Shown piece after piece: positions 23,817-64,000 of a stretch of 64,000 nt of DNA. Position 1 is the stretch's first letter, and each line of letters begins with the position of its first letter. Made by a program: the position numbers and the translations under genes. The notes beneath the pieces were generated by a model. The model was not told the origin of the DNA. It made no database searches and saw only the letters and a list, made by a program, of their open reading frames with translations. Source of the stretch: Patescibacteria group bacterium (GTDB lineage: Bacteria > Patescibacteriota > Microgenomatia > UBA1400 > MFAQ01); assembly GCA_943355005.1 (NCBI GenBank), contig CALRDV010000001.1:178059-242058 (forward strand), read 5' to 3'.

Positions 23817-23838
23817 TAGTCAATTAAGGTAATACACT

Positions 23839-24027
23839 ATGCCTACCATAAATGAAAATGTACTGAGTGAAATAAATTGTCTTCCCAATACTACAGATGA
23901 AATGAAAAGTTTTTTGAAATGGATTCTAGGCTATGAAAGGGACCATGCGGAACAGAGAGCTTTCTATAAGGTTGATATTGAAAAAAAACTTGATCAAACA
24001 TTAATTATTAATAAAGCCAACAATTAA
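23839..24027 (+). CDS. small protein (62 aa), translationally coupled to downstream ATPase
   Basis: Its stop codon TAA overlaps the ATG of the next gene (TAATG). Confidence 0.35.
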   Translation: MPTINENVLSEINCLPNTTDEMKSFLKWILGYERDHAEQRAFYKVDIEKKLDQTLIINKANN

Positions 24028-38379: not shown

Positions 38380-39522
38380 ATGTCTGAATCTAGCACAGAA
38401 TACGATGGTCGGTTGACCGATGTCATGAATTATCCTCCATCAGGAGAACGTGAAGGTAATGATAAAAATTTTGAAGTAATTGGAATTCCGGCTTTTGTTG
38501 CTGAGTTCAATGCTAAGGCATCAGTCGCCCAAAAAAGAGCTTTAATGCAGACGATGTATCTCTTACCTTCTCACTTTAGTGATTTACTGGTAAATTCTCT
38601 CGTAAAAGCCTCTAAGAGGGGAGTTGAGGCTTCTATCGTTACGGATGGCATTGTCAAAATTTCTCGAGCCAGAGACAAGGCAACTGCGGCAATTCTTGGT
38701 AGCAACTCTACCAGGGAATTTGACGTATATGCTACTAAAAAAATGGATGAAAAACTGAAAGACAGTGGAGTAAAAGTAGTAGAAAGTCGACCTTTTACCA
38801 AGCTTAACCTGCTTTTATTCGCTTTCAAAAGAAATCACTTCAAAATGGCAGTAGTAGATAATACAGCCTGGATTGGAGGACTCAACGCAGGCAAAGAATC
38901 TGATTTTAATCGGATAGATTTTATGATGAGGGTTACGGACCAAGAACTGGTTGACGAATTGGCATCAATTATTCAGGCACCGGAAAAAATAAATAAGGAT
39001 TATTCAAAAACAGTTGGCAATGTAGATTTGATTGTTGATGGTGGTGTTCCAGGTCAATCTATTATTATGGAAAAAGTTAACCAGGCAATTGAGTCTATTG
39101 AGCATCCTGAGGATGCAGAAATTACAATTCTCTCCCCGTGGGTTCCGGATGGTAAATTGCTTGATGTCTTACATGAAGCAGGGTTGAAGGGTACAAAAAT
39201 TACCGTTGTTACGAGTTATCACCCTTTTGAATTCGCCTTCGAAGGGGTTTACGCATTGGTAAAAAATTACAACATTCTAATGATGAATCTAAAAGGTAAA
39301 AGACTCACAACCTTATACACGCCTTTAGAGGTCCATGGAAAGATGTTATTTATCAGAGACGGCTCAAAGAAAACTGCCATGATTACAACTCACAACTTTA
39401 CAGACAAGGGTGTAAAGATGGGAACGGCAGAGATCGCTCTCATGTCTCAAAACGAAACTTTTGCAGATTCTTGTAACACTTTTATAGAAAAAGTAAAATC
39501 TGTCTCAAAAACCACAAAATAA
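38380..39522 (+). CDS. PLD-superfamily protein (one canonical and one degenerate HKD motif)
   Basis: Motif 1 'HFKMAVVDNTAWIGGLNAG'. Motif 2 'VHGKMLFIRDGSKKTAMITTHNFTD' is degenerate. Confidence 0.5.
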   Translation: MSESSTEYDGRLTDVMNYPPSGEREGNDKNFEVIGIPAFVAEFNAKASVAQKRALMQTMYLLPSHFSDLLVNSLVKASKRGVEASIVTDGIVKISRARDKATAAILGSNSTREFDVYATKKMDEKLKDSGVKVVESRPFTKLNLLLFAFKRNHFKMAVVDNTAWIGGLNAGKESDFNRIDFMMRVTDQELVDELASIIQAPEKINKDYSKTVGNVDLIVDGGVPGQSIIMEKVNQAIESIEHPEDAEITILSPWVPDGKLLDVLHEAGLKGTKITVVTSYHPFEFAFEGVYALVKNYNILMMNLKGKRLTTLYTPLEVHGKMLFIRDGSKKTAMITTHNFTDKGVKMGTAEIALMSQNETFADSCNTFIEKVKSVSKTTK

Positions 39523-50900: not shown

Positions 50901-51241
50901 TATTTGTTACAGTCAGAGATAAATTATTTGAAAGATCAAAGTTGCCAAAGATCCAAGGCAACAGAGCTGAAGCAATTCAAAGACTTACAGTTCTCTCTGA
51001 TAACCTGCCCCTAGCAAAGGATTATGCTCTTGACCTAATAAAAGTAATAAAAGAATATGACGATTTGAGCGATGGACAATACAAAGATATTGCTAGAGTC
51101 AAATTAGATAATCTTGATGAAGCATATAAAAAGATTCAAGGGATTGCTCCCGTACAGGTTATTAAGGTTAGTTTGAATAAGGCTGACCAGCTTCAAGGTC
51201 AATCTGAGCTGATTGTACTTAGTCAAGAGTTAAGAGTATGA
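47918..51241 (+). CDS. PLD-family nuclease fused to SNF2-family helicase (1107 aa)
   Basis: N-terminal PLD motif 'YLVHNKSETNQGGDAPGTIFIGSSNLT'. SNF2 motif I 'VVGLGKSIIA', motif II 'IVIDEAHRYRN', motif III 'LTATPFNN' and motif VI 'IQRIGRINR'. Confidence 0.85.
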   Translation: MSIIDNQSQTMLEALRNALSISDRVDIQVGYFYFSGFELLAEELKDKKVRILVGKQIDPNAVPKIIAMQQKTGKPVDLDRFQPQESHSSRSAQKADYFEGFTRLFNETSVFDEPRSQDAYKTFEQKIIDGSLEIKLTNTDEHGKMYLVHNKSETNQGGDAPGTIFIGSSNLTYNGLLDQGELNSVNREKSQFLEGLQKFEAMWSDSDNIDVATIDNQSEFKDVIRKLWINAVERPYLMYIRVLHELFGQDKDTEIKTPSKITGESFIDLEYQLDAIKMGINKIEQYGGVIIADVVGLGKSIIASTIAYNIAHKDNINVIIICPPHLISQWEDYQANFHLPGTKIFSSGKIEEAYNWCFNQQSGPAIIVIDEAHRYRNELTDDYMLLHQLVRSNKDNKVVVLTATPFNNDPKDVFALVKLFQTPGQSTIKSVDNLSIRFRELIQRYKELRNAMRGNKLSEEEVEVEAKDISRELKRLIEPIIIRRSRLDLKRISRYRNNLIKQGIEFAEIDGPTLLEYDLEDLFGLYVTTLEKITDEENGFIGARYKPVTYLSEESREEFVKKYGNQIDVDLVTAQTNLAKFMKRLLVMRFESSKQAFGITLQNMIDSNLFISKWYHEKGQIPVLKKGRIPDPDSYEIDTDDNISEELTEQLEDQPTSKHKLIFVDRNWISPSFIKEVEADTQLLQQIKSDWFEDPKVKDFDPKLDNLTEKIKDLLNENPDKKIIIFSAYADTVDYVGEQLKKKGFMRTFKYTAADASKSYREELKHNFDAGIREELQKNDYDILVATDALSEGYNLHRAGIIFNYDIPFNPTRVIQRIGRINRINKKVFDRLHIYNFFPTSIGEDVTRIKQISMLKMSLINSVVGSDTKTLTDTEELKTFQEDKDVEKLLKAQLKQATDEAEEESWDAIHRDRYDQTPDDVIDKAKTVRPRSRVIRKGQTEEIAIAYGKRGDHSVFAIKHDTEDPIIVSAEQVLPFFVAREDEEGYAPDSEYNKLFVTVRDKLFERSKLPKIQGNRAEAIQRLTVLSDNLPLAKDYALDLIKVIKEYDDLSDGQYKDIARVKLDNLDEAYKKIQGIAPVQVIKVSLNKADQLQGQSELIVLSQELRV

Positions 51242-54200
51242 AATTAAACGAAAAGTACAACAAAGAACAATTTCTTGATTGGTTAGAGGAGTTACTTCCA
51301 GATTTTGAGAGAGACATTAAAAAAGTTGACGTCCCAAGTTCATTTGGTGATGTCAATCTAATTGAGTCGCTCGGCAAAACATCGATAGGCGTCATGGTGT
51401 TTGCAATTCAAATGGAATTTGATCCTACGCGACGTAGAATATCAATCACAAAGGACAGTTTTAATATCTTAAAGAATTATTCAGTTCAAAATGCAATCAT
51501 TGCATACTTTTGTCCAGACTTCGGTCAATGGAGGTTATCTCTACTTACCAGTACCGCTACCTGGGAAGATGGTAGGGTTATTTCAAAATTATCTAACCTT
51601 AAGAGGCAGTCATTTGTACTCGGTGTCGGAGCCAAAACTAAAACTCCTACAAAATATCTTGCTGGTAGGGTTAATAGCTTGGCAGATCTTAAAAAGAGAT
51701 TCTCAATAGAAGTTGTCAATAAAGATTTCTACAAAGAAATATCTACTGCGTTCAATTCTTTGCAGTCAGTACTACAGGTTCCAAGCAAGGAAGCAAAGAG
51801 TCAAACAAATCTTGAATTTTCGGTAAGACTAATTGGAAGAATTATATTCTGTTGGTTCCTTAGAGAAAAGAGGAGTGAGGCGGGAATTTCCTTGATATCA
51901 GATAAGGTACTTTCACTTCAAGCAGTAAAAAGTAGCAAAGACTATTATCACAAGTTGCTTGAACCATTATTTTTTGAGGTTCTCAACAAACCTTTAGAAA
52001 GTAGAAACTTTGATGAGTTCGACAAAGAACCCTTTACCCAAACTCCTTATCTCAATGGTGGTCTTTTTTCCGCCCAATACGATGATTACTACGAACGAGG
52101 CAGAAACGATTTTCAGTCCAAATATCACAATACACTAGTTATCCCAAATAACTGGATCGAGTCGTTATTCGATATACTTGAAACCTACCATTTTACAATC
52201 GACGAGAATACTAGTTATGATGAAGAGCTTTCAATAGACCCTGAAATGCTAGGTCGAATATTTGAAAATCTCTTAGCAGAAATTAACCCTGACACAGGTG
52301 AATCGGCAAGAAAAAGTACTGGTAGTTATTACACTCCAAGAGTAATTGTCGATTATATGGTAGATGAAAGTCTGGCTTTATATCTTAAGAACAAAACAAA
52401 CATTGATGAAGATAAAATCAGGGCTGTAATTAGTTATGACCTTGATGACGATCAGACAAAACCCCTAACAGAAGAAGAAAAAGTAAAAATAATTGACTCC
52501 CTAGGTAAACTAAAGATTCTAGACCCTGCCTGTGGGTCAGGAGCTTTTCCAATGGGTGTTCTTCAAAAAATTGTCTTCATTCTTCAGCAGATAGATCCAA
52601 ACGCAGAAGTCATGCATTCAATGGACTTAAAACAAACTCCTCCAGAATTTAGAAGGCACATACAGGAAGAATTTAGTGCCGGAAACTATGATTATCTGCG
52701 GAAATTAAGAGTAATTAGAGAATGTATTTATGGGGTAGACATCCAACCGATTGCTACTGAAATCTCGAGACTAAGATGTTTCCTAACGCTTGTTGTTGAT
52801 CAGGCAATAAAAGACGATAGGCCAGATAGGGGGATTAAACCCCTTCCAAACCTAGATTTTAAGTTTGTTACAGCAAATACATTAATCGGATTACCAAAAG
52901 TTGATAGCACCTCTCCCTCACTTTTTGATGACTTTAAGCTCATAGATGAGCTTAAACAAGTTCGTGATGATTATTTCAATTCATATGGGATCGAAAGAGA
53001 AAAACTAAAAAACGACTTTTCAGAAAAACAAAACGATTTAATCAACGAATTAATTGAAAAGCATGATTATGTAGGTTACTCAAAAGCTGATCTAACAAGA
53101 AGTTTAACAAGCTGGAAACCGTTTAAACATATAACGACAGAATGGTTCGATGCTGAGTGGATGTTTGGTGTAAAAGACGGTTTTGACATGATAATTGCAA
53201 ACCCACCATATGTTGGAGAAAAAAGTCATAAGGAATTGTTTGATGTTTTGAGAAAATCACCACTAGGAAAACAGTTTGGTAAGGGAAAGATGGACCTTTT
53301 TTACTATTTTTTTCATCACGGGATTAATAATCTAAAAGATGGAGGCACACTTTCTTTTATTACCACGAATTATTATCCGACAGCGGATGGAGCAATCAGC
53401 CTTCGTAGAGATTTTTATAATAGGACTAACGTTGTTGAGCTAATCAACTTCAACGAGTACAAAATATTTGAATCAGCATTAGGTCAGCACAACATGATTA
53501 CTTTGCTGCAAAAAGAAGGTCCAAAAGATAACTTTCTTACAAGTGAAACTTTTGTAACAATCACGGGAGGGCCAAATTCAGAAGAAATTGTAAAAATTCT
53601 TAACCATACTTGCGAAGAATGTGTATATGGAAATATATCTCGCTCAAAATTATATGAAGGTAACAATTATTATCTGAGATTTGTTTCAGGAAAAACTGAA
53701 ACTGATCAACTACTTGAAAAACTGTATTTAAGCGGGAAGCCGCTAATTGAGTTTGCGAATACCAACGAAGGTTTACACACTGGTCTAGATTCGGTATCTG
53801 ACAAAGACCTTCTGAAAACGAAAAACAAAGCCATTACAAAGGGTGAAGAAATATTTGTTGTTACCAAGGGGCGTTACGGCTTTGGCCACCTTCATCCATG
53901 GTTCAAAGGTTCCGACATCAAACACTATGTGGCAAATACAGAATCAAATTATGAGGTTATATATTACGATAACGATACGCATCCAGAGAAAGATGAGCTA
54001 AACCATTTGAGTAAATTTAGAGATCTCCTTGAAAAAAGAGTCGCCATCAAGAGGGCAAACAGGCCTTGGTATCAACTTAATTGGCCAAGAAAACAATCAA
54101 TGTTCGAAGGACAAAAGATAGTAAACCCGTATAGGTCACTTAATAACTATTTTGCTCTAGTTAATACTCCATGGTATGCTTCTGCAGATGTATTTTTCAC

Positions 54201-54531
54201 ACAGACAAAAAATTCAGAATTAATATCGAATGAGGTTTTGACGGCCATCCTTAACAGTAAGTTGGTATTGTTTTGGCTAAAGCATCGAGGCAAACGGAAG
54301 GGTAAAATCTTGGAAATAAAATCGATTCCTATTGGACAAATCCCTATAGTATTACCTGAAGAAGATGATAAGAAGAAGTTGGAATCTTATGTCAAACAAA
54401 TCCTAGAGGTTAAAAAAAATGATTCGGATGCAGATATTTCAATACATCAAAATCACATTGATCGTTTGGTTTATAAAGTCTATGGACTTAATGATATAGA
54501 AATCAAAATTGTGGAGAATTCATTAGCGTAA
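51238..54531 (+). CDS. Eco57I/PglX-like gamma-class N6-adenine DNA methyltransferase with unassigned N-terminal domain and C-terminal target-recognition region (1097 aa)
   Basis: 'YYTPRVIVDYMVDE', motif I 'LDPACGSGAFPMGV' and motif IV 'IANPPYVGEK'. About 350-aa N-terminal extension and about 400-aa C-terminal extension. Start overlaps the stop of the upstream gene (ATGA). Confidence 0.85.
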   Translation: MKLNEKYNKEQFLDWLEELLPDFERDIKKVDVPSSFGDVNLIESLGKTSIGVMVFAIQMEFDPTRRRISITKDSFNILKNYSVQNAIIAYFCPDFGQWRLSLLTSTATWEDGRVISKLSNLKRQSFVLGVGAKTKTPTKYLAGRVNSLADLKKRFSIEVVNKDFYKEISTAFNSLQSVLQVPSKEAKSQTNLEFSVRLIGRIIFCWFLREKRSEAGISLISDKVLSLQAVKSSKDYYHKLLEPLFFEVLNKPLESRNFDEFDKEPFTQTPYLNGGLFSAQYDDYYERGRNDFQSKYHNTLVIPNNWIESLFDILETYHFTIDENTSYDEELSIDPEMLGRIFENLLAEINPDTGESARKSTGSYYTPRVIVDYMVDESLALYLKNKTNIDEDKIRAVISYDLDDDQTKPLTEEEKVKIIDSLGKLKILDPACGSGAFPMGVLQKIVFILQQIDPNAEVMHSMDLKQTPPEFRRHIQEEFSAGNYDYLRKLRVIRECIYGVDIQPIATEISRLRCFLTLVVDQAIKDDRPDRGIKPLPNLDFKFVTANTLIGLPKVDSTSPSLFDDFKLIDELKQVRDDYFNSYGIEREKLKNDFSEKQNDLINELIEKHDYVGYSKADLTRSLTSWKPFKHITTEWFDAEWMFGVKDGFDMIIANPPYVGEKSHKELFDVLRKSPLGKQFGKGKMDLFYYFFHHGINNLKDGGTLSFITTNYYPTADGAISLRRDFYNRTNVVELINFNEYKIFESALGQHNMITLLQKEGPKDNFLTSETFVTITGGPNSEEIVKILNHTCEECVYGNISRSKLYEGNNYYLRFVSGKTETDQLLEKLYLSGKPLIEFANTNEGLHTGLDSVSDKDLLKTKNKAITKGEEIFVVTKGRYGFGHLHPWFKGSDIKHYVANTESNYEVIYYDNDTHPEKDELNHLSKFRDLLEKRVAIKRANRPWYQLNWPRKQSMFEGQKIVNPYRSLNNYFALVNTPWYASADVFFTQTKNSELISNEVLTAILNSKLVLFWLKHRGKRKGKILEIKSIPIGQIPIVLPEEDDKKKLESYVKQILEVKKNDSDADISIHQNHIDRLVYKVYGLNDIEIKIVENSLA

Positions 54532-54749: not shown

Positions 54750-56096
54750 ATGGAAAAACAACTCCGACGGGATATATCCGTCAAATATATAAAAGTTAGC
54801 GAGCTAAACCCTGCGGTCTACAACCCCAGAAAGCACGACAAAAAATCAGCCGACCAGCTGAAAGAAAGTATTACCAAATTTGGATTGGTCGACCCCATTA
54901 TCGTCAACGAGGCAATCGAAAGGAAAAACATCGTCATTGGTGGTCATTTCCGTTTGGAGGTTGCCAAAGAAATGGGTTTCGAAACAATTCCTGTCGTCTA
55001 CGTCAAAATTCCTGATATTGAGAAAGAAAAGGAGCTAAATCTCAGGTTAAATAAAAATACTGGTGAGTGGGATTGGGAATTACTCGCTAACTACGATTCA
55101 GCCTTTTTGGACTGCGTTGGTTTTAGTAGTGAAGAAATCGACCAAATCTTCGACATCGAAGATACTCCAGAGCAATTCGACCTTCAGAAAGAACTTGAAA
55201 AGCTCAATATCACTGAGATAAATATCAAGAAAGGTGATATTTACGATCTAGGTGGAAGTAGATTGATGTGTGGAGACTCTACAAATGAAGATGAATGGCT
55301 GAAGTTAATGGACGGTGAAAAGGCGGATATGTGTTTTACCGATCCACCTTACATTCTTGACTATTTAAAAACAAAGCGACACGGTAAGGCAGTCACAGGA
55401 TTTGGATCCAAGCGAGATAGACGCTACCTAGAAACTGAAAGCCTTCCAATTGACTTCACAGAAAAGTGGATGAAGAGTATTGCCAATATCCAAAAAGAGC
55501 ATTTCTCCATAATAGTTTATGAAAATTGGAAAAACTTAAGAACCATTTGGGGCGAGATGGAGAAACATTGGAAAGTGAAAAACATGATCGTTTGGCATTT
55601 ACCAAATCGTCACCAAGGTTTTTCATCTAAATATAAGTTCTTTAGTAAACACGATATTGCCATGGTGGGTGCATCCAAAAATGTTGATATCGAGTACAAC
55701 AACGAGGAGGAGATTGATGGTCTTCAAGAAGAATACGAAACAGCTCTCTATGCCATCTCTGGTAAACCACAATGGGAAGGTTACGAGAAAGGGAAGAAAA
55801 CCCAACCAACAGATTTCATCGAGTTCAATGCCTCTGACGAAAAACATTCCGGTCAGGGTGTTGTGTTTGGTACAAAGCCAACTGAGATACTGATTCCCTA
55901 TATCAAAGTTCTCACTAAACGAGGCGACTTAATTGTCGAACCTTTTGGTGGCAGTGGCTCAACCTTAATTGCGGCAACCAAGATGAAGCGCCGTTGCTAC
56001 TTAATGGAGAAGTCACCTGTCTATGCAGAAGTTATTAAAAGTCGTTGGGAAAAACTAACTGGGCTAAAAGCAAAGCTCTATGAAAAGCAAGATTGA
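54750..56096 (+). CDS. ParB-like nuclease domain fused to DNA methyltransferase (beta-class N4/N6)
   Basis: ParB box 'GGHFRLEVAKEMG'. Methyltransferase motif IV 'CFTDPPYIL' precedes motif I 'EPFGGSGSTLIAA'. Confidence 0.85.
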   Translation: MEKQLRRDISVKYIKVSELNPAVYNPRKHDKKSADQLKESITKFGLVDPIIVNEAIERKNIVIGGHFRLEVAKEMGFETIPVVYVKIPDIEKEKELNLRLNKNTGEWDWELLANYDSAFLDCVGFSSEEIDQIFDIEDTPEQFDLQKELEKLNITEINIKKGDIYDLGGSRLMCGDSTNEDEWLKLMDGEKADMCFTDPPYILDYLKTKRHGKAVTGFGSKRDRRYLETESLPIDFTEKWMKSIANIQKEHFSIIVYENWKNLRTIWGEMEKHWKVKNMIVWHLPNRHQGFSSKYKFFSKHDIAMVGASKNVDIEYNNEEEIDGLQEEYETALYAISGKPQWEGYEKGKKTQPTDFIEFNASDEKHSGQGVVFGTKPTEILIPYIKVLTKRGDLIVEPFGGSGSTLIAATKMKRRCYLMEKSPVYAEVIKSRWEKLTGLKAKLYEKQD

Positions 56097-56652: not shown

Positions 56653-57978
56653 ATGGATACATCCACAAAAACACAAGAAATAAACTACTGTCTCTACGCT
56701 CGCAAGTCTTCCGAAAGTGACGAAAGACAAATTATGTCGATTGATTCTCAAATCGACGAAATGAAGGTACTTGCCAAGAGAGAAAACATAAAAGTAAAAG
56801 AAATAAAAATAGAAAGTCACTCCGCAAAAGAGTCAGGAGCCAGACCAGTATTTGTCGAGTTGATAAAAGGAATACGCTCCGGAAAGTTTAACGGAATACT
56901 CACGTGGGCACCAGATCGTTTAAGCCGTAACGCAGGTGATCTAGGTACACTAGTGGACCTCATGGACCAGAAGAAACTACTCCGCATCCAAACATATAGC
57001 CAATCATTTACCAATAGTCCAAATGAAAAATTTCTGCTGATGATCCTCTGCTCTCAGGCAAAGCTAGAAAATGATAACAAAGGAGTAAATGTCGAAAGGG
57101 GGCTGAGAAATAAATGTAGTTTGGGATGGAAACCCAGTCTCGCTCCCATGGGATATCTCAATCAAAAAGGAGATGGTCGAACCGACGAGTTAGTAGTCCT
57201 TGATCCGGTAAGAGCACAATTTGTAAAACAAATGTTTGAAAGAGTGGGTGTCCAAGGACAAAGCGGCAGAGCGGTAAAAAGATGGTTAGATAGAATTGGC
57301 TTTGAAACAAGACAGGGTGTTATGTGTCCCCTGAGTAAGGTTCATACAATTCTCCGAAACCCTTTCTACTACGGAGAGTTTGAATTCCCGGCCGGAAGTG
57401 GCATCTGGTACAAGGGAAAGCACAAACCACTAATATCCAAAGAGCTGTTTGAAAAAGTCCAAAAACAGTTGGAAACAGTCCCTAAGACCTGGAATAAAAA
57501 TATCTTTGCATTTAAGACCCTCATGAAGTGTGGCTCATGCGGTAGTAGTGTGACCGCTGAGGAAAGATACAGAAGATTAAAGAGTGGTGGGTATCATAAG
57601 CATATCTATTACCATTGCAGAAGATATTTGAATTACGAATGCAAAGAGCCATACATCGACGAGGATGATTTAATTAAGCAGATAATCGCCAATCTTGACA
57701 AGATCTCCTTCAACCAAGCAGGAATATCCCGGAAAATCCAAGAGGACATCGAGAGATACCATCGACTAAAAACCGATGTGCTTCGCCAAGAGTATATGTT
57801 GGGAAAATTTGACGGAGATAACGGCATTATTCCCGGGAAACTTGAATTCAAAGCAATGGCAAAAAATTATCTGATCCATATTCTCAGGGGAGGAACGTCG
57901 GAAGAAAGACTAGAAGTATTATCCTTGATAAAGACACGATTCATTCTCCATGATAAAAAAGTTAGTATTAATGCTTGA
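56653..57978 (+). CDS. large serine recombinase
   Basis: N-terminal resolvase-type catalytic region 'YCLYARKSSESDERQIMSIDSQ'. Recombinase zinc-ribbon 'CGSCGSS...YYHCRRY'. Coiled-coil C-terminus. Confidence 0.8.
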   Translation: MDTSTKTQEINYCLYARKSSESDERQIMSIDSQIDEMKVLAKRENIKVKEIKIESHSAKESGARPVFVELIKGIRSGKFNGILTWAPDRLSRNAGDLGTLVDLMDQKKLLRIQTYSQSFTNSPNEKFLLMILCSQAKLENDNKGVNVERGLRNKCSLGWKPSLAPMGYLNQKGDGRTDELVVLDPVRAQFVKQMFERVGVQGQSGRAVKRWLDRIGFETRQGVMCPLSKVHTILRNPFYYGEFEFPAGSGIWYKGKHKPLISKELFEKVQKQLETVPKTWNKNIFAFKTLMKCGSCGSSVTAEERYRRLKSGGYHKHIYYHCRRYLNYECKEPYIDEDDLIKQIIANLDKISFNQAGISRKIQEDIERYHRLKTDVLRQEYMLGKFDGDNGIIPGKLEFKAMAKNYLIHILRGGTSEERLEVLSLIKTRFILHDKKVSINA

Positions 57979-58990
57979 AATTGGCTACTTTACCGTATTC
58001 TTCTTTGTCCCTCATTTTTGATGCTAAAAAATTTATCCACGCTTGGGAGTATCTGTAATCGTTCTCGGCAGATTTATATTCAACAATCTCTGATTTATAG
58101 TTAAGCCTCTTTTCTTGTGGGCGAACTTTATAAAATTTCCATGCTTTGGTGTGCATACCAGTTCCAAAATCAATTTTGGCTATTCTAGCTACTTCAGACG
58201 CTACATGAGATGGTCGATATATGTAAATATCTTCACCCACCAAGATCTTTTGTCTTTTAACTGCTGAAACTGGCACCGCCTGTAATTCTCCTACTAACTT
58301 AAGAGTCGGAGATCCGTTTTTTTCAGTAAAGTCACCTTCTCGTATGAATTTAAGTTTGGGAATTAGTTCTTCACCAATCACTACAGTTCCACCATTTCCA
58401 GAAATTTCCCCATTCAGAGTATTCATTACAGCAACATTTATGGGGTTAATTTGTGCAGATTTTGTAATTACTCTTCTCCACGCGTCGTTCTGCTTTTCAA
58501 TTTGTTTATCGAGCAATTTTCTGAGTTCTGGGAAATGTATTTTTTCCGATCTCGCACGATATCTAAAATAGATCTCTCCCTCTTTAATGTCTCCGTCATT
58601 TTTTGTTGCAATTATTGGCTTTGTTTCTGACTCAGATGTATATATCAAACCAAATGTTTTTCCATCCAAATCATAAACATCTACCTCCCATTCAATAGCT
58701 GGTTGAAAAATATCGTTAAGTTCAGCAGTGAATCTTTCTTGGCTGAATGTATCAAAATTCGATCTATCAATTCCGATAATTTCTCTTGGGTCATCCTTTA
58801 TACCAAATACGATATAGCCACCTTTGTTGTTGGCAAAAGCCGCCATCGTTTTGGCGTACTCACCAACACTTCCAATAGAAAATGTCTCTTTAAATTCAAG
58901 AGTTAAAGATTCTCTAGACCCAATTAAACTTGGATTTTGAGAGTTTTTATAGAATATATCTGATAGCTTTTCGCTTGAAAAGTTGTTCAA
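57968..58990 (-). CDS. AlbA_2 (Schlafen-like) DNA-binding domain protein
   Basis: 'ESLTLEFKETFS...MAAFANNKGGYIVFGIKDD' matches the AlbA_2/divergent-AAA Schlafen core. Confidence 0.6.
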   Translation of the reverse strand: MNNFSSEKLSDIFYKNSQNPSLIGSRESLTLEFKETFSIGSVGEYAKTMAAFANNKGGYIVFGIKDDPREIIGIDRSNFDTFSQERFTAELNDIFQPAIEWEVDVYDLDGKTFGLIYTSESETKPIIATKNDGDIKEGEIYFRYRARSEKIHFPELRKLLDKQIEKQNDAWRRVITKSAQINPINVAVMNTLNGEISGNGGTVVIGEELIPKLKFIREGDFTEKNGSPTLKLVGELQAVPVSAVKRQKILVGEDIYIYRPSHVASEVARIAKIDFGTGMHTKAWKFYKVRPQEKRLNYKSEIVEYKSAENDYRYSQAWINFLASKMRDKEEYGKVANFKH

Positions 58991-59228: not shown

Positions 59229-59765
59229 GTGTTATTTTACCCCATTTATCTGGGAAAAAGGAGGACCATGAATAATCTTCTGGTTTTTTGTATCAAAAAA
59301 TGGCTACACCTATCACCTGATCTGGTTGAGTCCCGACTATTTGATGAAGAGAGTTTCTACAAACAGTTCAGAGACGACTTACGCCACGCCAAGAAAGAAG
59401 TCATCATTGAGAGCCCATTTATCTCAACCAACCGCATGTATTCCCTCCTAGCGCCATTTGAAGAGCTAGTTCGTAGGAAGGTTAAGGTTTATGTATTTAC
59501 TCGTCATCCTGACGAACACGATCTGGGCATGAAACAGCAGGCGGAATCGGCAATTCGGAGATTTGAAGCTATGGGAGTGCAAGTACTCATAACGACTGAT
59601 TACCACCACCGAAAGATTGCTATCTTGGATAGGAATGTCTTATGGGAAGGAAGTCTAAATATACTATCTCAGACTTGTAGCCGTGAAATTATGCGCCGGA
59701 TAGACAGCGATAGCCTATCAAAAGAAATGTTTGAATATTTGAAGCTAAATAGATTTATATACTAA
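59229..59765 (+). CDS. Nuc-like single-HKD PLD-family endonuclease
   Basis: 'YHHRKIAILDRNVLWEGSLNI' is a canonical HxK(x)4D(x)6GSxN motif. 178 aa, the size of dimeric Nuc/BfiI-N-type nucleases. Confidence 0.7.
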   Translation: MLFYPIYLGKRRTMNNLLVFCIKKWLHLSPDLVESRLFDEESFYKQFRDDLRHAKKEVIIESPFISTNRMYSLLAPFEELVRRKVKVYVFTRHPDEHDLGMKQQAESAIRRFEAMGVQVLITTDYHHRKIAILDRNVLWEGSLNILSQTCSREIMRRIDSDSLSKEMFEYLKLNRFIY

Positions 59766-59769
59766 AAAT

Positions 59770-59952
59770 ATGGACAAAATTGATGAAATTCGCGAACTAA
59801 TACTGAAAAATAATATTGAAATGAACGATGATGAAATTCAGACAACCGTCGCGGAATTACAGTATTTGATTGATCTCTGGCTCAACAACATCGAACAGCA
59901 AGTATTTGAAGGTAAAACGCTGGATGAACTACTTATAGATATGAATCTATGA
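59770..59952 (+). CDS. small protein (60 aa) translationally coupled to recombinase
   Basis: Its stop overlaps the recombinase start by 4 nt. Possible recombination directionality factor. No motif. Confidence 0.3.
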   Translation: MDKIDEIRELILKNNIEMNDDEIQTTVAELQYLIDLWLNNIEQQVFEGKTLDELLIDMNL

Positions 59953-61418
59953 AACAGACACAAAAGAACGCAATTCTCTACCTTCGAGTATCTACCGAAG
60001 AGCAGGTAGATAATTACTCGCTAGGTACGCAAGAAGAAGTGTGTCGGCGAGAAATGGATCGACTGGGATATATCGTTACCCAAGTATTTCGCGAGGAAGG
60101 CAAATCTGCCAAAACCATCACTGGGCGTGTTGAGTTGATTAGGCTTCTGGAGTATTGCAGGCGACACTCTAAAGATGTCCAAGCCGTCGTATTCTATAAA
60201 ACAGATCGATTATCGAGACAGATGACTGATTACCTTGTTATCAAAGAGAAATTGAGTCTCATGGGAATTAAGCTTATTTCAGCAACCGAACCATTTGACG
60301 ATTCCCCTATGGGCAAATTTATCGGTAATTTCTATGCTGGGATTGCACAACTGGATAACGAAATGAAAAGTGAACGAGCGAGAAATGGGATGCATGCTCG
60401 ATTTCAGTCTGGTCTGGTTTGTTCCGGCAGAGCTCAGTTGGGATATGTCCGGCACGAAGGACACGTGTTTAAGGATACCAAGACTTGGGATAAAGTCAAA
60501 AAGGCATGGGATCTCATGGCTACGGGGACAATGTCTATACGAGAGATGATGAATATTATGAATGACTGGGGTTTGCGAGTATCTATCAATCAACAAGAAT
60601 ATCTCCTACGTAAGCAAACTGTGCATAGAATATTTCGATCAAAATTCTATACAGGTATTCTCGTATCCAAGCGGTACAACGAAGAAGTTCGTGGTCAACA
60701 TGAGGCGATGATATCGAAAGAATTGTTTGAAAAAGTCCAAGTAATACTCGATGGCAGGCACAATAAATCATCACTCGTTATTCGCAATAAACCGAACGGA
60801 AATTTTCCGTTTCGACGGTTGGTAAAGTGTGGTAAATGCGGATATGGATTTACCTCTGGATGGTGCAATGGTCATGCCAAGAAGTTTGCTTATTATTGGT
60901 GTTACAAATCTCAGTTATGCCGTTCTCGGTACGTACAAGCTAAATTTCTTCACTTTGATTTAGATATAATATTAAAGAAGACAAAGCTCTCTACATTGGG
61001 TCGCGAAATCATACAAATATTACTAGAAGAAGAATATGGCAAACGATATTCTAAAATCAGACTTCAGAGGGCAAAACGAGAACAATTAATAGGCAAGCTT
61101 ACTGCAATGCGGACTAATCTCGTCCAAAAACATTTATCTGGTCTTTATACTGATGAGATATTTTCTGAACAGAATACGTTGCTATCAGCGAATATCGATC
61201 GTCTCAAGATATCGACGAACATTACAGCGCTAAAGGAATATACTCTGTCAGTCTGCAAGGAATATGTGGATTCACGACTAGACAATATCTTTGTCACCTA
61301 TACTAATTTGGCAGTCGATAATCAGAAAGCTATTCTAAGCACCATATTCCCACTCGGTTTCGTATGGCAATATCCCGGATTAACATATCCTAAAATAAAT
61401 CCTTTGTTTGAGGTATAA
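59949..61418 (+). CDS. large serine recombinase
   Basis: 'AILYLRVSTEEQ' carries the catalytic Ser. Recombinase domain and zinc ribbon 'CGKCGYGF...YYWCYKS'. Coiled-coil C-terminus. Confidence 0.9.
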   Translation: MKQTQKNAILYLRVSTEEQVDNYSLGTQEEVCRREMDRLGYIVTQVFREEGKSAKTITGRVELIRLLEYCRRHSKDVQAVVFYKTDRLSRQMTDYLVIKEKLSLMGIKLISATEPFDDSPMGKFIGNFYAGIAQLDNEMKSERARNGMHARFQSGLVCSGRAQLGYVRHEGHVFKDTKTWDKVKKAWDLMATGTMSIREMMNIMNDWGLRVSINQQEYLLRKQTVHRIFRSKFYTGILVSKRYNEEVRGQHEAMISKELFEKVQVILDGRHNKSSLVIRNKPNGNFPFRRLVKCGKCGYGFTSGWCNGHAKKFAYYWCYKSQLCRSRYVQAKFLHFDLDIILKKTKLSTLGREIIQILLEEEYGKRYSKIRLQRAKREQLIGKLTAMRTNLVQKHLSGLYTDEIFSEQNTLLSANIDRLKISTNITALKEYTLSVCKEYVDSRLDNIFVTYTNLAVDNQKAILSTIFPLGFVWQYPGLTYPKINPLFEV

Positions 61419-61644: not shown

Positions 61645-61923
61645 TTAAAAGGTAAGTACCTCGGAAGATTTAATCCCTAGCGCTCCTAATACTTTTTTTA
61701 GCGTTATCACAGAAGGAATAGCCTCACCACGTTCCACCTTAGAGTAATAGTTGCTATTTAGTCCTGCTTTGTTGGCCACATCCGACTGCTTCATCCCCTT
61801 TTGCAGGCGGTATTGCTTGAGCTTTGAAGCTATTTCGAGACGTGTTTTATTATCTTTGTCGGTATGCATATCTGGGGATAGTATAACATTATGAGGGACC
61901 AGACCAAAATGCTTTGATCTCAT
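61645..61923 (-). CDS. XRE-family HTH transcriptional regulator
   Basis: 'LRLEIASKLKQYRLQKGMKQSDVANKAGLNSNYYSKVERGEAIPSVITLKKVLGALG' is an XRE-family HTH. Confidence 0.75.
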   Translation of the reverse strand: MRSKHFGLVPHNVILSPDMHTDKDNKTRLEIASKLKQYRLQKGMKQSDVANKAGLNSNYYSKVERGEAIPSVITLKKVLGALGIKSSEVLTF

Positions 61924-62164
61924 TTCATTCGAGTGAGTAGAAGACTATTCTCTTGGGGAGCAAAGCAAAATAGAAATCAGATCTAATAATTAACTCGAGA
62001 AAAGAGTAAAATACGTTCATGCTGATTATTGAGCTCTGGCTTAGCCTGTTCCGCAAAAGATTGGCGTATGTTATTAAAAATTCAATGGTGGGGATATGAA
62101 TGTATATTGAGGATACGTATGCGCATTATTCTTTTCGCCACAAAAAACAAAGTAGAATATACTT

Positions 62165-63619
62165 ATGAAAATTAAGCAGAGTCCGCCTTATGCACCCCTA
62201 CTCATAGAATCAATGCGTTCACTAGGTTACTCTTTCGACACTGCTATTGCCGATCTTATTGACAATAGCGTAAGTGCACAAGCTAAGAGTATAAATATTT
62301 TACTCGATCCGTCTGATAATCCACAACTAATCATTTTCGATGACGGTAACGGCATGGACGCTATTACACTAGAAGAAGCTCTCAGATTTGGTAGTAGAGG
62401 ACCGCTTGAAAAACGCAATGAGTTTGATCTTGGTCGATTCGGTCTTGGATTAAAGTCTGCGTCACTTTCCCAGTGCAGACGGTTGGTGGTGGCGAGTAAG
62501 CACGACGGTGCTTTAAGTTGCTTCTCTTGGGATTTGGATGAAGTTGAAAAGACTGGTGACTGGTCAGTGCTAGAATATTCACAAGAGGAGATTAGCAAGC
62601 TTCCATCGATCGATCTTTTTGATTCTGTTGAATCCGGTACATACGTATTGCTACAAAATTTTGACCGAATTTCAGCTTCATCACACGACGTAAAAAAGAC
62701 ATTGGATACGCTAATTGAGATTGCCGAAGACCACTTATCATTAGTATTTCATCGAATAATTGCTGAAGATCGAGTTACAATAGCCATCAATGGTAGACCA
62801 ATCGCATCCAAAGACCCTTTCTTAGAAAATCATAAATCTACTCAACGTCTCCGAGAGCAAAGCATCAACATCGACGACAAAAAGATCACACTTCAACCTT
62901 ACATCCTGCCACACAGAAGCAAACTTTCTAGGGAAGATTTGCGTAAAGTAGGAGGTGCTGAAGATCTGCGCACAAATCAGGGTTTTTATATCTACCGTTG
63001 CAAGAGACTAATTATTTGGGGCACTTGGTTCAGATTGCTAAGTAAAGAAGAATTGAACAAGCTTGCGCGAGTAAAAGTAGATATTCCAAATTCGCTTGAT
63101 GAAATTTGGAGCATTGACGTTAAGAAAAGCACTGCGAACTTACCTGATAAAATTAGAAAAAATCTCTACGGCAGTATTAAAGAATCCATATTTGGAAGTA
63201 AAAAAGTAATTGAATATCGTGGCAAGCTCAATCGGGACGAAGACATTACCTATATTTGGCAACGACTAACTGAAAGAGACGGAAGTGTAACGTATTCAAT
63301 CAATCGTGACTTGCCTCAAATCCAGATTCTAACGAACAGCTTTGATCAAACGGGACAACGTGTTTTAGAAACACTACTAGAAAATATTGAAGATAATTTT
63401 CCTGCAAGTAGTGTTTATCTAGATGTTGCAGATGGTGAGATTAGTACAGTCTTAAAAGACAACCAGAAGATTGTAGATGATTTTGAAGAGCAACTTACTT
63501 TTGCAGATAAATTAGGCATATCTCGAGATGAATTGATCAATATGCTTTTGAAAACAGAACCGTACGCAAGTAATGATGACCTTAAAGAAATGTATAATAA
63601 TCATCAGGTAGACTTATGA
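62165..63619 (+). CDS. GHKL-superfamily ATPase (HATPase_c_3, MORC-like)
   Basis: Bergerat-fold N box 'IADLIDNSVSAQA', G1 'IFDDGNGMD' and G2 'GRFGLGLKSAS'. Confidence 0.75.
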   Translation: MKIKQSPPYAPLLIESMRSLGYSFDTAIADLIDNSVSAQAKSINILLDPSDNPQLIIFDDGNGMDAITLEEALRFGSRGPLEKRNEFDLGRFGLGLKSASLSQCRRLVVASKHDGALSCFSWDLDEVEKTGDWSVLEYSQEEISKLPSIDLFDSVESGTYVLLQNFDRISASSHDVKKTLDTLIEIAEDHLSLVFHRIIAEDRVTIAINGRPIASKDPFLENHKSTQRLREQSINIDDKKITLQPYILPHRSKLSREDLRKVGGAEDLRTNQGFYIYRCKRLIIWGTWFRLLSKEELNKLARVKVDIPNSLDEIWSIDVKKSTANLPDKIRKNLYGSIKESIFGSKKVIEYRGKLNRDEDITYIWQRLTERDGSVTYSINRDLPQIQILTNSFDQTGQRVLETLLENIEDNFPASSVYLDVADGEISTVLKDNQKIVDDFEEQLTFADKLGISRDELINMLLKTEPYASNDDLKEMYNNHQVDL

Positions 63620-64000
63620 CAGAAGACGTAAAGACATTCAAAAGAATCGTTCAAGACCTGCTAGACAAACATAGCGCCAAGGATTCGATAAGTGATACTT
63701 TGATTGACGAACAGGTGGAGAAGACATTCGCTGCAAAAGATGTCCTTGGGATGGTTATATCCGAAGATGAGAAAAAGTTTGTTCGCAATGAGTTGCTTGC
63801 TGACAACAAAATCCGTCTTGAGCCAGGCGTTGCGATTGTTCCTCGAACTCACAAAAAATGGTTTGCTGAACGGAAGCCAGTGATAGATTTGGATTATTGG
63901 AATCGATTCAAAGAGCTCCTTGTTAAGGATAAGGGATTCCCCCTCAATGTTGTTGCCGAAATGGACAATGTTTCTGATGAGATCGTTGATTTATTGGGTG
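63616..64000 (+). CDS. partner gene of GHKL ATPase, 5' portion only (window end)
   Basis: Its ATG overlaps the TGA of the upstream gene (ATGA). The reading frame stays open for 128 codons to the window edge. It is not in the supplied track because it is truncated. Confidence 0.5.
   Translation, partial: MTEDVKTFKRIVQDLLDKHSAKDSISDTLIDEQVEKTFAAKDVLGMVISEDEKKFVRNELLADNKIRLEPGVAIVPRTHKKWFAERKPVIDLDYWNRFKELLVKDKGFPLNVVAEMDNVSDEIVDLLG

What the first reader, a model, noticed from the sequence alone, without database searches (positions are those of the whole stretch)
62165..64000. MORC-like GHKL ATPase coupled by ATGA overlap to an uncharacterised downstream gene at the window edge
The 484-aa protein has clear Bergerat-fold motifs of the HATPase_c_3/MORC type. 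Prokaryotic MORC-like ATPases have been predicted to act in RM-like defense operons. Its stop overlaps the start of an ORF that remains open for 128 codons to the window edge and is not in the supplied ORF track. The pair lies just downstream of an XRE regulator on the opposite strand. It could be part of an uncharacterised GHKL-based defense module carried by the mobile element.
Basis: partly seen in the sequence, partly recalled or inferred. Interest (0 to 1): 0.55.

Follow-up and report, generated by a model that had tools for sequence, protein, structure and literature searches.

The report
MORC–Z1 methylase-linked restriction-type defence operon
The ATPase and the gene it overlaps are the first two genes of a widespread, already described bacterial anti-virus operon (a relative of the "Mza" system, built around a DNA-methylating enzyme), so the finding is real but is a new member of a known kind.

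Summary
Window 62165-63619 (+) encodes a 484-aa GHKL ATPase. Its stop overlaps (ATGA, 63616-63619) an ORF that runs off the window.

I recovered the same contig from a public assembly (0 mismatches over 11,836 nt) and read the rest. The partner is an 892-aa DEAD-Z1 helicase-like protein. It is followed by a DUF4420 PD-(D/E)XK nuclease, an AIPR protein, a C5 cytosine methyltransferase and an AspBHI-type 5mC-dependent endonuclease, all tightly packed on one strand.

The ATPase carries the S5-domain signature that defines prokaryotic MORCs. The four core proteins are homologues of MzaB-E but score far below the NCBIfam equivalog cut-offs, and there is no sigma-factor-like MzaA.

The MORC-Z1-DUF4420-AIPR order recurs in 65 other loci from many phyla and from viral contigs. 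A C5 methylase lies within the fetched flanks in 63 of them.

This architecture was predicted as an R-M-like system in 2008 (Iyer et al.) and again in 2022 (Miller et al., "type II"). The related mzaABCDE system is phage-validated.

The most likely mechanism is methylation-marked self, with ATP-driven restriction of unmethylated DNA. That step is inferred, not shown.

Verdict: a new member of a known kind, probably in a Saccharibacteria genome. Interest is modest.

The parts
62165..63619 (+). Prokaryotic MORC-family GHKL+S5 ATPase (MzaB-like), 484 aa; first gene of the operon
   Evidence: Family matches: Pfam HATPase_c_3 E 8e-34; PADLOC MzaB E 1.6e-76; NCBIfam MzaB 321.6 bits, below the equivalog cut-off of 850.

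Motif conservation in 58 orthologues: motif I D30/N34 58/58; G1 D59xG61xG63 58/58; G2 G90xxG93xG95 58/58; T159 58/58; MORC S5 signature G273-FYIYRCKR281-LI 57/58; K321 57/58.

Structure: best PDB sequence matches are MORC4/2/3. AF2 model (pLDDT 67) gives Foldseek top hits MORC3/4/2 and SMCHD1, then MutL and Hsp90.
63616..64000 (+). First 128 codons of the 892-aa DEAD-Z1 SF2 helicase-like protein (MzaC-like). The full gene runs to window-equivalent 66294 (L001 11452-14130).
   Evidence: Translation is open to the window end. The same contig was recovered as L001.

Full protein: Pfam Z1 E 3e-72; PADLOC MzaC E 6e-121; NCBIfam MzaC 491.6 bits against a cut-off of 1500. The window fragment alone hits MzaC at E 5.6e-08.

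Walker A GDVQSGKT, DDEAD, TAT and the Z1 motif D562-TLMQMGRWFG are conserved in 52-53 of 53 orthologues.
63616..63619 (+). ATGA stop/start overlap between the MORC and Z1 genes
   Evidence: Read directly from the sequence. An overlap or a gap of only a few nucleotides between the two genes is seen in most related loci (the ORF starts there were assigned mechanically).
61645..61923 (-). XRE/C-protein-like HTH regulator, divergently oriented. A possible local controller, not a conserved component.
   Evidence: Pfam HTH_3 E 2.5e-14. PADLOC R-M 'Control_protein' E 3e-12. The public gene call uses a shorter 74-aa start. No homologue was found upstream of the operon in the 57 related genomic loci.
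61924..62164 (.). 241-nt intergenic region between the XRE gene and the MORC gene; presumed divergent promoter region (unverified)
   Evidence: Consensus promoter and terminator matches are no more frequent than in shuffled sequence. Only weak inverted repeats were found.
59949..61418 (+). Large serine recombinase immediately upstream (context, not a component of the system)
   Evidence: Pfam Resolvase, Recombinase and Zn_ribbon_recom. A second recombinase lies at 56653-57978. Serine recombinases recur next to related operons: 7 neighbouring ORFs among the 30 viral-contig loci, weak matches in several genomic loci, and the Thalassospira plasmid.

Best explanation
The finding is the 5' end of a six-gene, single-strand operon about 9.7 kb long. 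Coordinates are window-equivalent (L001 + 52164):

- MORC GHKL ATPase, 62165-63619
- DEAD-Z1 helicase-like motor, 63616-66294
- DUF4420 PD-(D/E)XK nuclease, 66287-67204
- AIPR protein, 67207-69306
- C5 cytosine DNA methyltransferase, 69343-70638
- AspBHI-type 5mC-dependent endonuclease, 70657-71856

It is a methylase-linked relative of the Mza anti-phage system. It is the same as the prokaryotic MORC 'type 3' R-M-like operon of Iyer et al. 2008 and fits the 'type II' system of Miller et al. 2022.

Proposed mechanism (inferred):
1. The C5 methylase marks the host's own DNA at a specific sequence.
2. On unmethylated incoming DNA, the Z1 motor translocates along dsDNA using ATP, as H.CglI does.
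3. The MORC dimer acts as an ATP-gated DNA clamp or looping switch that licenses the DUF4420 nuclease to cut.
4. AIPR acts as a further DNA-binding or effector subunit of unknown chemistry.
5. The AspBHI-like enzyme is an optional add-on that cuts phage DNA carrying 5mC in contexts the host methylase does not make.

Shown here: gene content, order, tight coupling, intact catalytic motifs, homology, and near-universal methylase linkage.
Inferred: the direction of the methylation logic, the complex formation, and the roles of MORC and AIPR.
For: Same contig:
- L001 matches the window with 0 mismatches over 11,836 nt.

Domain assignments:
- Z1 E 3e-72; DUF4420 E 2e-51; AIPR E 4e-97 plus AIPR_N; DNA_methylase E 3e-46; RE_AspBHI_N plus Mrr_cat.
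- PADLOC MzaB/C/D/E hits at E 1.6e-76, 6e-121, 1e-18 and 1e-71.

Operon structure in L001:
- Gene spacings are -4, -8, +2, +36 and +18 nt.

Catalytic motifs are intact and conserved across 37-58 orthologues:
- GHKL motifs I-IV.
- SF2 motifs I, II and III plus the Z1 motif VI.
- DUF4420 E139...D169...E178xK180.
- C5 methylase motifs I, IV (PCQ), VI (ENV), VIII (QxRxR) and X (GNS).

Synteny and methylase linkage:
- The MORC-Z1-DUF4420-AIPR core is present in 47 of 57 genomic loci and 18 of 30 viral-contig loci. Most of the others are cut by contig ends.
- A C5 methylase lies within the fetched flanks in 63 of those 65 complete loci. It is usually less than 120 nt away on the same strand (Pfam counts).

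Literature:
- Iyer et al. 2008 describe exactly this operon type, and both signature motifs are met here.
- Miller et al. 2022 define a core of Z1, DUF4420 and cytosine methylase; their type II adds AIPR and is associated with a MORC protein and a regulator.
- mzaABCDE protects against T4, and purified MzaD cuts phage DNA (preprint).
- H.CglI DEAD-Z1 is an ATP-driven dsDNA translocase that activates a nuclease.
Against: - No experiment or methylome is available for this clade.
- mzaABCDE, as named and tested, lists no methylase among its five genes. The MORC/Z1/nuclease/AIPR machinery may therefore discriminate targets without methylation.
- No subunit has a recognisable sequence-specific DNA-reading domain.
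- AIPR has no structural or biochemical precedent. The PDB sequence search found nothing and the best Foldseek E-value was 0.23.
- Motif I has Asp (D30, 58/58) where other GHKL ATPases have the catalytic Glu, so ATP turnover may be slow or regulatory.
- A 5mC-dependent nuclease beside a 5mC methylase is awkward for simple R-M logic unless their specificities do not overlap.
- The operon promoter and terminator could not be identified above chance.
Confidence: 0.65

Rival explanations
1. Two or three independent systems sit side by side in a defence island: (a) a methylation-independent Mza-like effector complex (MORC, Z1, DUF4420, AIPR) that senses infection in some other way; (b) a stand-alone C5 methylase; (c) a stand-alone type IV (AspBHI-like) enzyme.
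For: - mzaABCDE protects E. coli and lists no methylase among its genes.
- The best PADLOC model for the methylase is an 'orphan methyltransferase'.
- The surrounding region is packed with unrelated defence genes.
- The AspBHI-like gene is present in only 7 of 87 related loci.
Against: - A C5 methylase accompanies 63 of 65 complete core operons across phyla and viral contigs, mostly within 120 nt on the same strand. That is far tighter than island co-occurrence.
- Miller et al. list the methylase as a core gene.
- The 36-nt and 18-nt gaps leave little room for separate promoters.
Confidence: 0.22
2. It is a modification-dependent system. The machinery attacks modified rather than unmodified DNA, or the methylase marks foreign DNA that the AspBHI-like enzyme then cuts.
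For: - An AspBHI orthologue (PDB 4oc8, E 6e-93) is embedded in MORC-type operons at three different positions in at least five unrelated contexts.
- Zheng et al. 2010 found about half of the MspJI-family genes next to a 5mC methylase and called this unexplained.
- mzaABCDE activity varies with T4 cytosine modification.
Against: - Most operons of this clade (about 90%) lack the AspBHI-like gene, so it cannot be the core effector.
- mzaABCDE restricts unmodified T4(C) at least as well as modified T4.
- Vsr, typical of hosts that carry 5mC in their own DNA, is a frequent neighbour: 11 downstream and 4 upstream ORFs in the genomic loci, and 3 ORFs in the viral loci.
Confidence: 0.08
3. It is a DNA-repair or maintenance module, not a defence system: a MutL-like ATPase, a helicase and a nuclease acting on 5mC-related lesions or mismatches.
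For: - The GHKL+S5 fold is shared with MutL.
- The module is linked to Dcm and often to Vsr.
- Iyer et al. note that a few MORC operons may have been recruited for repair.
Against: - The distribution is sporadic and horizontally mobile, including viral contigs, plasmids and recombinase-flanked islands.
- The proteins are homologous to a phage-validated system.
- AIPR/AbiU-type proteins are linked to abortive infection.
- There is no MutS-like partner.
Confidence: 0.04
4. The ATPase is a fragment of a conventional two-component sensor histidine kinase.
For: Only the generic HATPase fold. A few homologues also carry a precomputed PF02518 hit.
Against: - No HisKA, HAMP, PAS or transmembrane domain was reported.
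- The protein is full length and collinear with 58 orthologues.
- The MORC-specific S5 motif is present.
- The best structural matches are MORC, SMCHD1 and MutL, not kinases.
- There is no response regulator nearby.
Confidence: 0.01

Closest known systems
mzaABCDE (Mza) anti-phage system (per my recollection first reported by Gao et al. 2020; modelled in PADLOC and NCBIfam NF041932-5)
   Same: - Four homologous proteins in the same order: GHKL ATPase (MzaB), Z1 helicase-like protein (MzaC), PD-(D/E)XK DUF4420 protein (MzaD) and AIPR (MzaE).
- All four hit the PADLOC and NCBIfam Mza models.
- 35% identity to the MzaB-position protein of a Thalassospira plasmid operon in which PGAP names MzaE.
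   Different: - Scores are far below the NCBIfam equivalog cut-offs: 322/850, 492/1500, 94/420 and 332/1050.
- There is no MzaA (sigma-factor-like) gene.
- A C5 methylase is an obligatory neighbour in this clade.
- The host is probably Saccharibacteria rather than Enterobacteria.
Prokaryotic MORC 'type 3' R-M-like operon (Iyer, Abhiman and Aravind 2008, PMC2292703)
   Same: - MORC with the S5 motif GhXhhpXXRhl.
- SFII helicase with a C-terminal domain carrying DThhQXuRhFG (later named Z1).
- An RE-fold protein with E-D-ExK.
- Frequent DCM, VSR and AIPR neighbours.
Every feature is met here.
   Different: Nothing essential. This locus lacks Vsr and adds an AspBHI-like gene.
Putative defence system 'type II' of Miller et al. 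2022 (PMC9523054)
   Same: - Core of a Z1 protein (about 925 aa), a PD-(D/E)XK DUF protein and a cytosine methyltransferase.
- Type II adds AIPR and is associated with a MORC-family ATPase and a transcriptional regulator.
- Low identity to mzaBCDE, and mzaA mostly absent.
   Different: I could not assign subtype II-A or II-B because the figures are not held. The regulator here (XRE) is not conserved among close relatives.
CglI / NgoAVII ATP-dependent restriction-modification systems (PMC5861437, PMC4267653)
   Same: A C5 methylase plus a DEAD-Z1 motor subunit whose ATP-driven dsDNA translocation activates a separate nuclease. This is the only biochemical precedent for a Z1 protein.
   Different: [quoted passage not shown]
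- No PDB sequence match was found for the Z1 protein here.
- A Neisseria gonorrhoeae record, the species that carries NgoAVII, gave only about 24% identity over part of the protein in tblastn.
Eukaryotic MORC2/3/4 and SMCHD1 ATPase modules; bacterial MutL
   Same: GHKL+S5 fold. These are the top sequence matches (E 1e-6) and structure matches (E 1e-10, TM 0.35-0.44). The MORC S5 signature is shared.
   Different: - No CW, coiled-coil or hinge domains.
- Asp instead of Glu at the motif I catalytic position.
- A distinct C-terminal region of about 130 residues.
- Works in an operon with a helicase-like protein and a nuclease.
AspBHI / MspJI family of 5mC-dependent endonucleases (sixth gene)
   Same: Full-length match to AspBHI, PDB 4oc8 (E 6e-93). 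Adjacency to a 5mC methylase, as noted for about half of the family.
   Different: Here, and in at least five unrelated contexts, it is embedded in a MORC-Z1-AIPR operon. Its specificity is unknown.

Membership tests
GHKL (Bergerat-fold) ATPases | Motifs I (ExxxNxxD), II/G1 (DxGxG), III/G2 (GxxGxG) and IV (T) | tested here: met
   N34, D59xG61xG63, G90xxG93xG95 and T159 are invariant in 58 of 58 orthologues. Pfam HATPase_c_3 is matched full length. Caveat: the motif I acidic residue is Asp (D30, 58/58), not Glu (alignment to MORC4).
Prokaryotic MORC family (Iyer et al. 2008) | S5-fold domain after the GHKL domain, with the family-specific GhXhhpXXRhl motif | tested here: met
   G273-F-Y-I-Y-R-C-K-R281-L-I fits the pattern. 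G273, R281 and L282 are conserved in 57 of 58 orthologues. The best Foldseek hits are MORC3/4/2. The S5 region of the model has low confidence.
Prokaryotic MORC family (Iyer et al. 2008) | Operon with an SFII helicase (type 3: C-terminal domain with DThhQXuRhFG) and an RE-fold E-D-ExK protein | tested here: met
   Z1 protein D562-TLMQMGRWFG is conserved in 49-53 of 53 orthologues. DUF4420 has E139, D169 and E178xK180 in 52-53 of 54. Synteny is shown.
Mza system (MzaABCDE) | Homologues of MzaB, MzaC, MzaD and MzaE adjacent and collinear | tested here: met
   PADLOC E-values 1.6e-76, 6e-121, 1e-18 and 1e-71. Gene order.
Mza system (MzaABCDE) | Proteins reach the NCBIfam equivalog cut-offs (same-function subfamily) | tested here: not met
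   Scores against cut-offs: 321.6 vs 850; 491.6 vs 1500; 94 vs 420; 332.4 vs 1050 bits.
Mza system (MzaABCDE) | MzaA (sigma-factor-like protein) upstream | tested here: not met
   The upstream genes are an XRE HTH, a 73-aa ORF with no family hit and a serine recombinase. No sigma-factor family appears among the listed families for the upstream neighbours of 50 related loci (only the 25 top families are shown). A sigma-70 gene is present in the Thalassospira Mza operon.
Mza system (MzaABCDE) | Confers phage resistance | not testable with these tools
   Requires heterologous expression and plaque assays.
Miller et al. 2022 putative system, type II | Core of a Z1 protein, a PD-(D/E)XK DUF protein and a cytosine methyltransferase, plus AIPR; associated MORC ATPase and regulator | tested here: met
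   All six elements are present. The methylase accompanies 63 of 65 complete related operons.
DEAD-Z1 helicase-like motors (H.CglI prototype) | N-terminal RecA-like core with Walker A/B plus a Z1 domain as C-core with motif VI | tested here: met
   Pfam Z1 E 3e-72 at residues 404-628. Walker A GDVQSGKT, DDEAD and the QMGRWFGYR motif are conserved.
DEAD-Z1 helicase-like motors (H.CglI prototype) | ATP-dependent dsDNA translocation that activates a partner nuclease | not testable with these tools
   This is a biochemical property, known only for CglI.
Restriction-modification system (functional sense) | Active-looking methyltransferase and nuclease encoded together | tested here: met
   C5 methylase motifs I, IV, VI, VIII and X are intact, and the PD-(D/E)XK triad is intact.
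Restriction-modification system (functional sense) | Methylation by the cognate methylase protects DNA from the nuclease | not testable with these tools
   Needs a methylome and in vivo or in vitro restriction assays.
Two-component sensor histidine kinases | HisKA/dimerisation-phosphoacceptor domain N-terminal to the HATPase domain | tested here: not met
   HATPase_c_3 is the only Pfam family hit, and it starts at residue 22.
MspJI/AspBHI modification-dependent endonucleases (sixth gene) | SRA-like N-terminal domain plus Mrr-type D...(Q/E)xK catalytic domain | tested here: met
   RE_AspBHI_N E 1.5e-48 and Mrr_cat E 7e-11. Full-length alignment to AspBHI 4oc8 includes RDGGRD...EAK.

The most novel reading that the evidence does not exclude
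The recurrent embedding of an AspBHI-type 5mC-dependent nuclease inside operons that also encode a C5 methylase and a MORC/Z1 motor is not a coincidence of defence islands. It could reflect a 'mark-then-cut' or fail-safe mechanism. In one version, the ATP-driven machinery directs or unleashes cytosine methylation on invading DNA, or on the host chromosome during infection, and the 5mC-dependent nuclease then destroys the marked DNA. This would explain the long-noted, unexplained pairing of MspJI-family enzymes with 5mC methylases.
Probability: 0.07. Interest if true: 0.75.

Novelty: new member of a known kind. Interest (0 to 1): 0.3.

Why it matters
The mechanism of Mza-type systems is still unknown: how a MORC clamp, a Z1 translocase, a PD-(D/E)XK nuclease and AIPR cooperate has not been worked out. 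Prokaryotic MORCs are also the presumed ancestors of the eukaryotic MORC chromatin silencers that respond to DNA methylation.

This locus adds three things:
- A compact, intact example, probably from a reduced Saccharibacteria genome.
- A quantitative result that the C5 methylase is practically obligatory in this clade (63 of 65 complete operons). This argues that the clade works by methylation-based self-marking.
- The observation that AspBHI-type enzymes are repeatedly built into these operons.

None of this overturns current views. It makes a good, testable construct for the open question of what bacterial MORCs do.

Tried and rejected
- Sensor-kinase reading: rejected. There is no HisKA domain, and the MORC S5 motif and fold are present.
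- XRE as a conserved controller: there was no tblastn match in 57 related genomic loci. I kept it only as a possible local regulator.
- Promoter and terminator scan of the operon: 28 promoter-like sites against 33.8 expected, and 3 terminator-like sites against 7.8 expected. This is uninformative.
- Search for C-box-like inverted repeats in the 241-nt intergenic region: only weak, short repeats were found.
- MzaA search: no PADLOC hit for the 73-aa upstream ORF or its neighbours.
- PDB sequence searches found nothing significant for the Z1 protein, AIPR or DUF4420.
- AIPR AF2 model: the N-terminal domain is confident but the core domain has pLDDT 25-35. The best Foldseek E-value was 0.23. The weak top hits included McrC and Can2 chains, which I recall as containing PD-(D/E)XK-type nuclease domains. 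I treat this as a lead only, not evidence.
- Two literature searches were swamped by unrelated uses of 'AIPR' and 'Mza'.
- No tRNA gene was found in the window that could mark an integration site.
- I ran no further search on taxonomic placement. The Saccharibacteria assignment rests on the closest operon relatives only.
Full report
OBSERVATION

The ORF at window 62165-63619 (+) is real: 484 aa with an ATG start. It matches Pfam HATPase_c_3 end to end (residues 22-159, E 8e-34). Its TGA stop overlaps an ATG at 63616 (…cttATGAcag…), and that frame stays open for 128 codons to the window end. An XRE/HTH_3 gene lies on the opposite strand at 61645-61923.

GETTING THE MISSING SEQUENCE

An exact-sequence look-up of the ATPase found one public contig, ENA ERZ27280309 k141_2119755 (202 kb), fetched as L001. 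It is identical to the window over the whole 11,836-nt overlap (window coordinate = L001 + 52164).

That contig ends near window position 44,829. The window itself must therefore come from a longer assembly of the same genome; the protein index lists a 326,620-bp contig.

L001 gives 9.6 kb beyond the window end.

WHAT IS ENCODED

Downstream of the ATPase, all on the + strand, the gaps between genes are -4, -8, +2, +36 and +18 nt. The genes are:

- An 892-aa protein with a DEAD-type N-core and a Z1 domain (Pfam Z1 E 3e-72).
- A 305-aa DUF4420 PD-(D/E)XK protein (E 2e-51).
- A 699-aa AIPR_N+AIPR protein (E 4e-97).
- A 431-aa C5 cytosine methyltransferase (E 3e-46).
- A 399-aa RE_AspBHI_N+Mrr_cat endonuclease.

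PADLOC models MzaB, MzaC, MzaD and MzaE hit the first four proteins at E 1.6e-76, 6e-121, 1e-18 and 1e-71. NCBIfam's MzaB-E equivalog models also hit, but far below their trusted cut-offs: 322/850, 492/1500, 94/420 and 332/1050 bits. Even the 128-codon fragment inside the window hits MzaC (E 5.6e-08).

The sixth protein aligns full length to the crystallised 5mC-dependent enzyme AspBHI (PDB 4oc8, E 6e-93).

IS THE ATPASE 'MORC-LIKE'?

Yes, by three tests:

1. By sequence, the only PDB matches are MORC4, MORC2 and MORC3 (E 1e-6 to 1e-4, GHKL region only).
2. An AlphaFold2 model has mean pLDDT 67. The GHKL part is good and the S5 part is weak. Its best Foldseek hits are MORC3/4/2 and SMCHD1, followed by MutL and Hsp90 (E about 1e-10, TM 0.35-0.44).
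3. Iyer, Abhiman and Aravind (2008, PMC2292703) define the MORC family by a GhXhhpXXRhl motif in the S5 domain. The protein has G273-FYIYRCKR-LI, conserved in 57 of 58 orthologues.

The four GHKL motifs are invariant. The one oddity is that the motif I acidic residue is Asp (D30, 58/58), where MORC4 aligns a Glu and, from general knowledge, MutL and Hsp90 also have Glu. No HisKA or other kinase domain is present, so the sensor-kinase alternative is rejected.

THE PARTNER

The same 2008 paper describes a 'type 3' MORC operon. It has a distinct SFII helicase whose C-terminal domain carries DThhQXuRhFG, plus an RE-fold protein with E-D-ExK, and often DCM, VSR and AIPR genes.

- The partner here has D562-TLMQMGRWFG (49-53 of 53 orthologues) and intact Walker A, DDEAD and TAT motifs.
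- The DUF4420 protein has E139…D169…E178xK180.

The only biochemically studied Z1 protein is the H subunit of the CglI restriction enzyme. There, the DEAD-Z1 pair forms an ATP-driven dsDNA translocase whose movement activates a separate nuclease (PMC5861437).

CONSERVATION

The ATPase has thousands of database relatives: 7,895 clusters at E ≤ 1e-10, with the scored candidates capped at 8,000. All the close ones are unnamed.

A scan of one genome per species returned 57 loci:

- The closest (76-87% identity) are four Candidatus Saccharibacteria MAGs, one further MAG titled only 'bacterium', and one more Saccharibacteria contig at 77%.
- Next come Bacillota (about 48-58%).
- Then Muribaculaceae, Nitrospirae, Proteobacteria, Myxococcota and Planctomycetes (32-55%).

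Thirty IMG/VR viral contigs also carry relatives at 28-44% identity.

Profile searches of all ORFs in these loci found the complete MORC-Z1-DUF4420-AIPR core in 47 genomic and 18 viral loci. Most of the rest are truncated by contig ends. A C5 methylase lies within the fetched flanks in 63 of those 65, usually less than 120 nt from the operon on the same strand (independent Pfam counts). One exception, L010, ends in a partial methylase at the contig edge.

Other neighbourhood results:

- Vsr is a frequent neighbour, seen in 18 neighbouring ORFs in all.
- MORC-to-Z1 spacing is an overlap or a few nucleotides in most loci.
- The XRE gene has no detectable counterpart upstream of any genomic relative.
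- No sigma-factor gene (MzaA) appears among the listed neighbour families.
- A plasmid operon in Thalassospira marina, annotated by PGAP with mzaE, does have a sigma-70 gene in front. It is also followed by an AspBHI-like gene (43% identical to the one here) and a C5 methylase.

WHAT IS ALREADY KNOWN

- mzaABCDE is cited as a validated anti-phage system. A preprint reports 10^3-10^4-fold protection against T4(C) and T4(hmC), no growth arrest, and DNA cleavage by purified MzaD (10.1101/2022.06.16.496414).
- Miller et al. (2022, PMC9523054) describe a widespread putative system whose core is a Z1 protein of about 925 aa, a PD-(D/E)XK DUF protein and a cytosine methyltransferase. Their 'type II' adds AIPR and is associated with a MORC-family protein and a transcriptional regulator. 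It shows about 20% identity to mzaBCDE, and mzaA is mostly absent.

The present locus fits that description gene for gene.

MECHANISM

Shown: the architecture, the tight coupling, the intact active sites, the homologies and the obligatory methylase.

Inferred, from established R-M logic, the CglI precedent and the 2008 proposal that MORCs loop DNA between recognition and cleavage sites:

1. The methylase marks the host's own DNA.
2. The Z1 motor translocates on unmethylated DNA.
3. The MORC dimer gates or bridges the complex.
4. DUF4420 cuts.
5. AIPR contributes an unknown DNA-binding or effector function.
6. The AspBHI-like enzyme covers phages that methylate their own cytosines.

My confidence figures:

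- About 0.95 that this is a member of the MORC/Z1/DUF4420/AIPR/Dcm family.
- About 0.6 for the methylation-protects-self logic.
- 0.65 for the combined statement.

The main rival (0.22) is that the four-protein core works without methylation, as mzaABCDE does, and that the methylase and the AspBHI-like gene are separate neighbours. The 63/65 linkage argues against it.

CONTEXT

The operon sits at the end of a defence-rich stretch:

- A PLD+SNF2 helicase fused protein, coupled to an Eco57I/MmeI-type methylase (47918-54531).
- A ParB-N6/N4 methylase (54750-56096).
- A Schlafen/AlbA_2 protein (57968-58990, minus strand).
- A small PLD nuclease (59229-59765).
- Two large serine recombinases (56653-57978 and 59949-61418).

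Serine recombinases also flank related operons elsewhere, so 'carried by a mobile element' is plausible. I could not define the island ends.

VERDICT

It belongs to a kind predicted in 2008, validated in a sister clade, and described again in 2022.

It is a new member, probably from Saccharibacteria, and not a new kind. Interest is 0.3.

The most interesting loose end is the repeated insertion of AspBHI-type 5mC-dependent nucleases into these methylase-containing operons. It connects to an association that Zheng et al. (2010, PMC2938202) called unusual and unexplained.

Noticed in passing
L001 18493-19692 (window-equivalent 70657-71856); also L002, L004, L006, L011, L013, L058, L060 and L072: An AspBHI orthologue (a 5mC-dependent endonuclease) lies 18 nt after the C5 methylase. 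The same family is built into MORC/Mza-type operons at three different positions (after the methylase, before MORC, and between AIPR and the methylase) in at least five unrelated contexts. Zheng et al. 2010 noted that MspJI-family genes often neighbour 5mC methylases and left it unexplained.
   Followed up: partly
window 47918-51241 and 51238-54531 (+): An 1107-aa PLD+SNF2 helicase fusion (PADLOC DrmD and 'HKD+Snf2' models) overlaps by 4 nt a 1097-aa Eco57I/MmeI-type methylase (type IIG model, E 9e-73). This is a second, two-gene restriction- or DISARM-like module.
   Followed up: partly
window 54750-56096 (+): A ParB_N domain is fused to an N6/N4 DNA methyltransferase (448 aa). This architecture is, in my recollection, typical of mobile-element methylases.
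   Followed up: no
window 57968-58990 (-) and 59229-59765 (+): A Schlafen/AlbA_2 protein (PADLOC candidate PDC-S19, E 3.5e-13) and a small PLD-family nuclease (weak MkoC/DrmC hits) lie between two large serine recombinases (56653-57978 and 59949-61418).
   Followed up: no
window 62252-62254 (codon D30 of the MORC protein): The catalytic acidic residue of GHKL motif I is Asp, not Glu, in all 58 orthologues and in the Thalassospira Mza-type protein. This may indicate a slow, switch-like ATPase.
   Followed up: partly
window 21765-25949 and 38380-39522: Further nucleic-acid-enzyme genes lie earlier in the window: a ResIII/SNF2 helicase (683 aa), an SMC_N/AAA_15 ATPase (640 aa) and a double-PLD protein (380 aa). 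The defence-rich region may be much larger than the finding. No tRNA gene is present in the window.
   Followed up: no
L001 15043-15600 (AIPR N-terminal domain; window-equivalent about 67207-67760): The AIPR N-terminal domain is predicted with high confidence (pLDDT 85-95). Its weak, non-significant Foldseek hits include McrC and Can2 chains, which I recall as containing PD-(D/E)XK-type nuclease domains. This hints at a second nuclease-like fold.
   Followed up: partly
window about 44829: The public ENA contig that matches the window ends here. The window therefore derives from a longer (326,620-bp) assembly of the same genome. Its closest operon relatives are in Candidatus Saccharibacteria MAGs, and the window G+C content is 38.8%.
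   Followed up: partly
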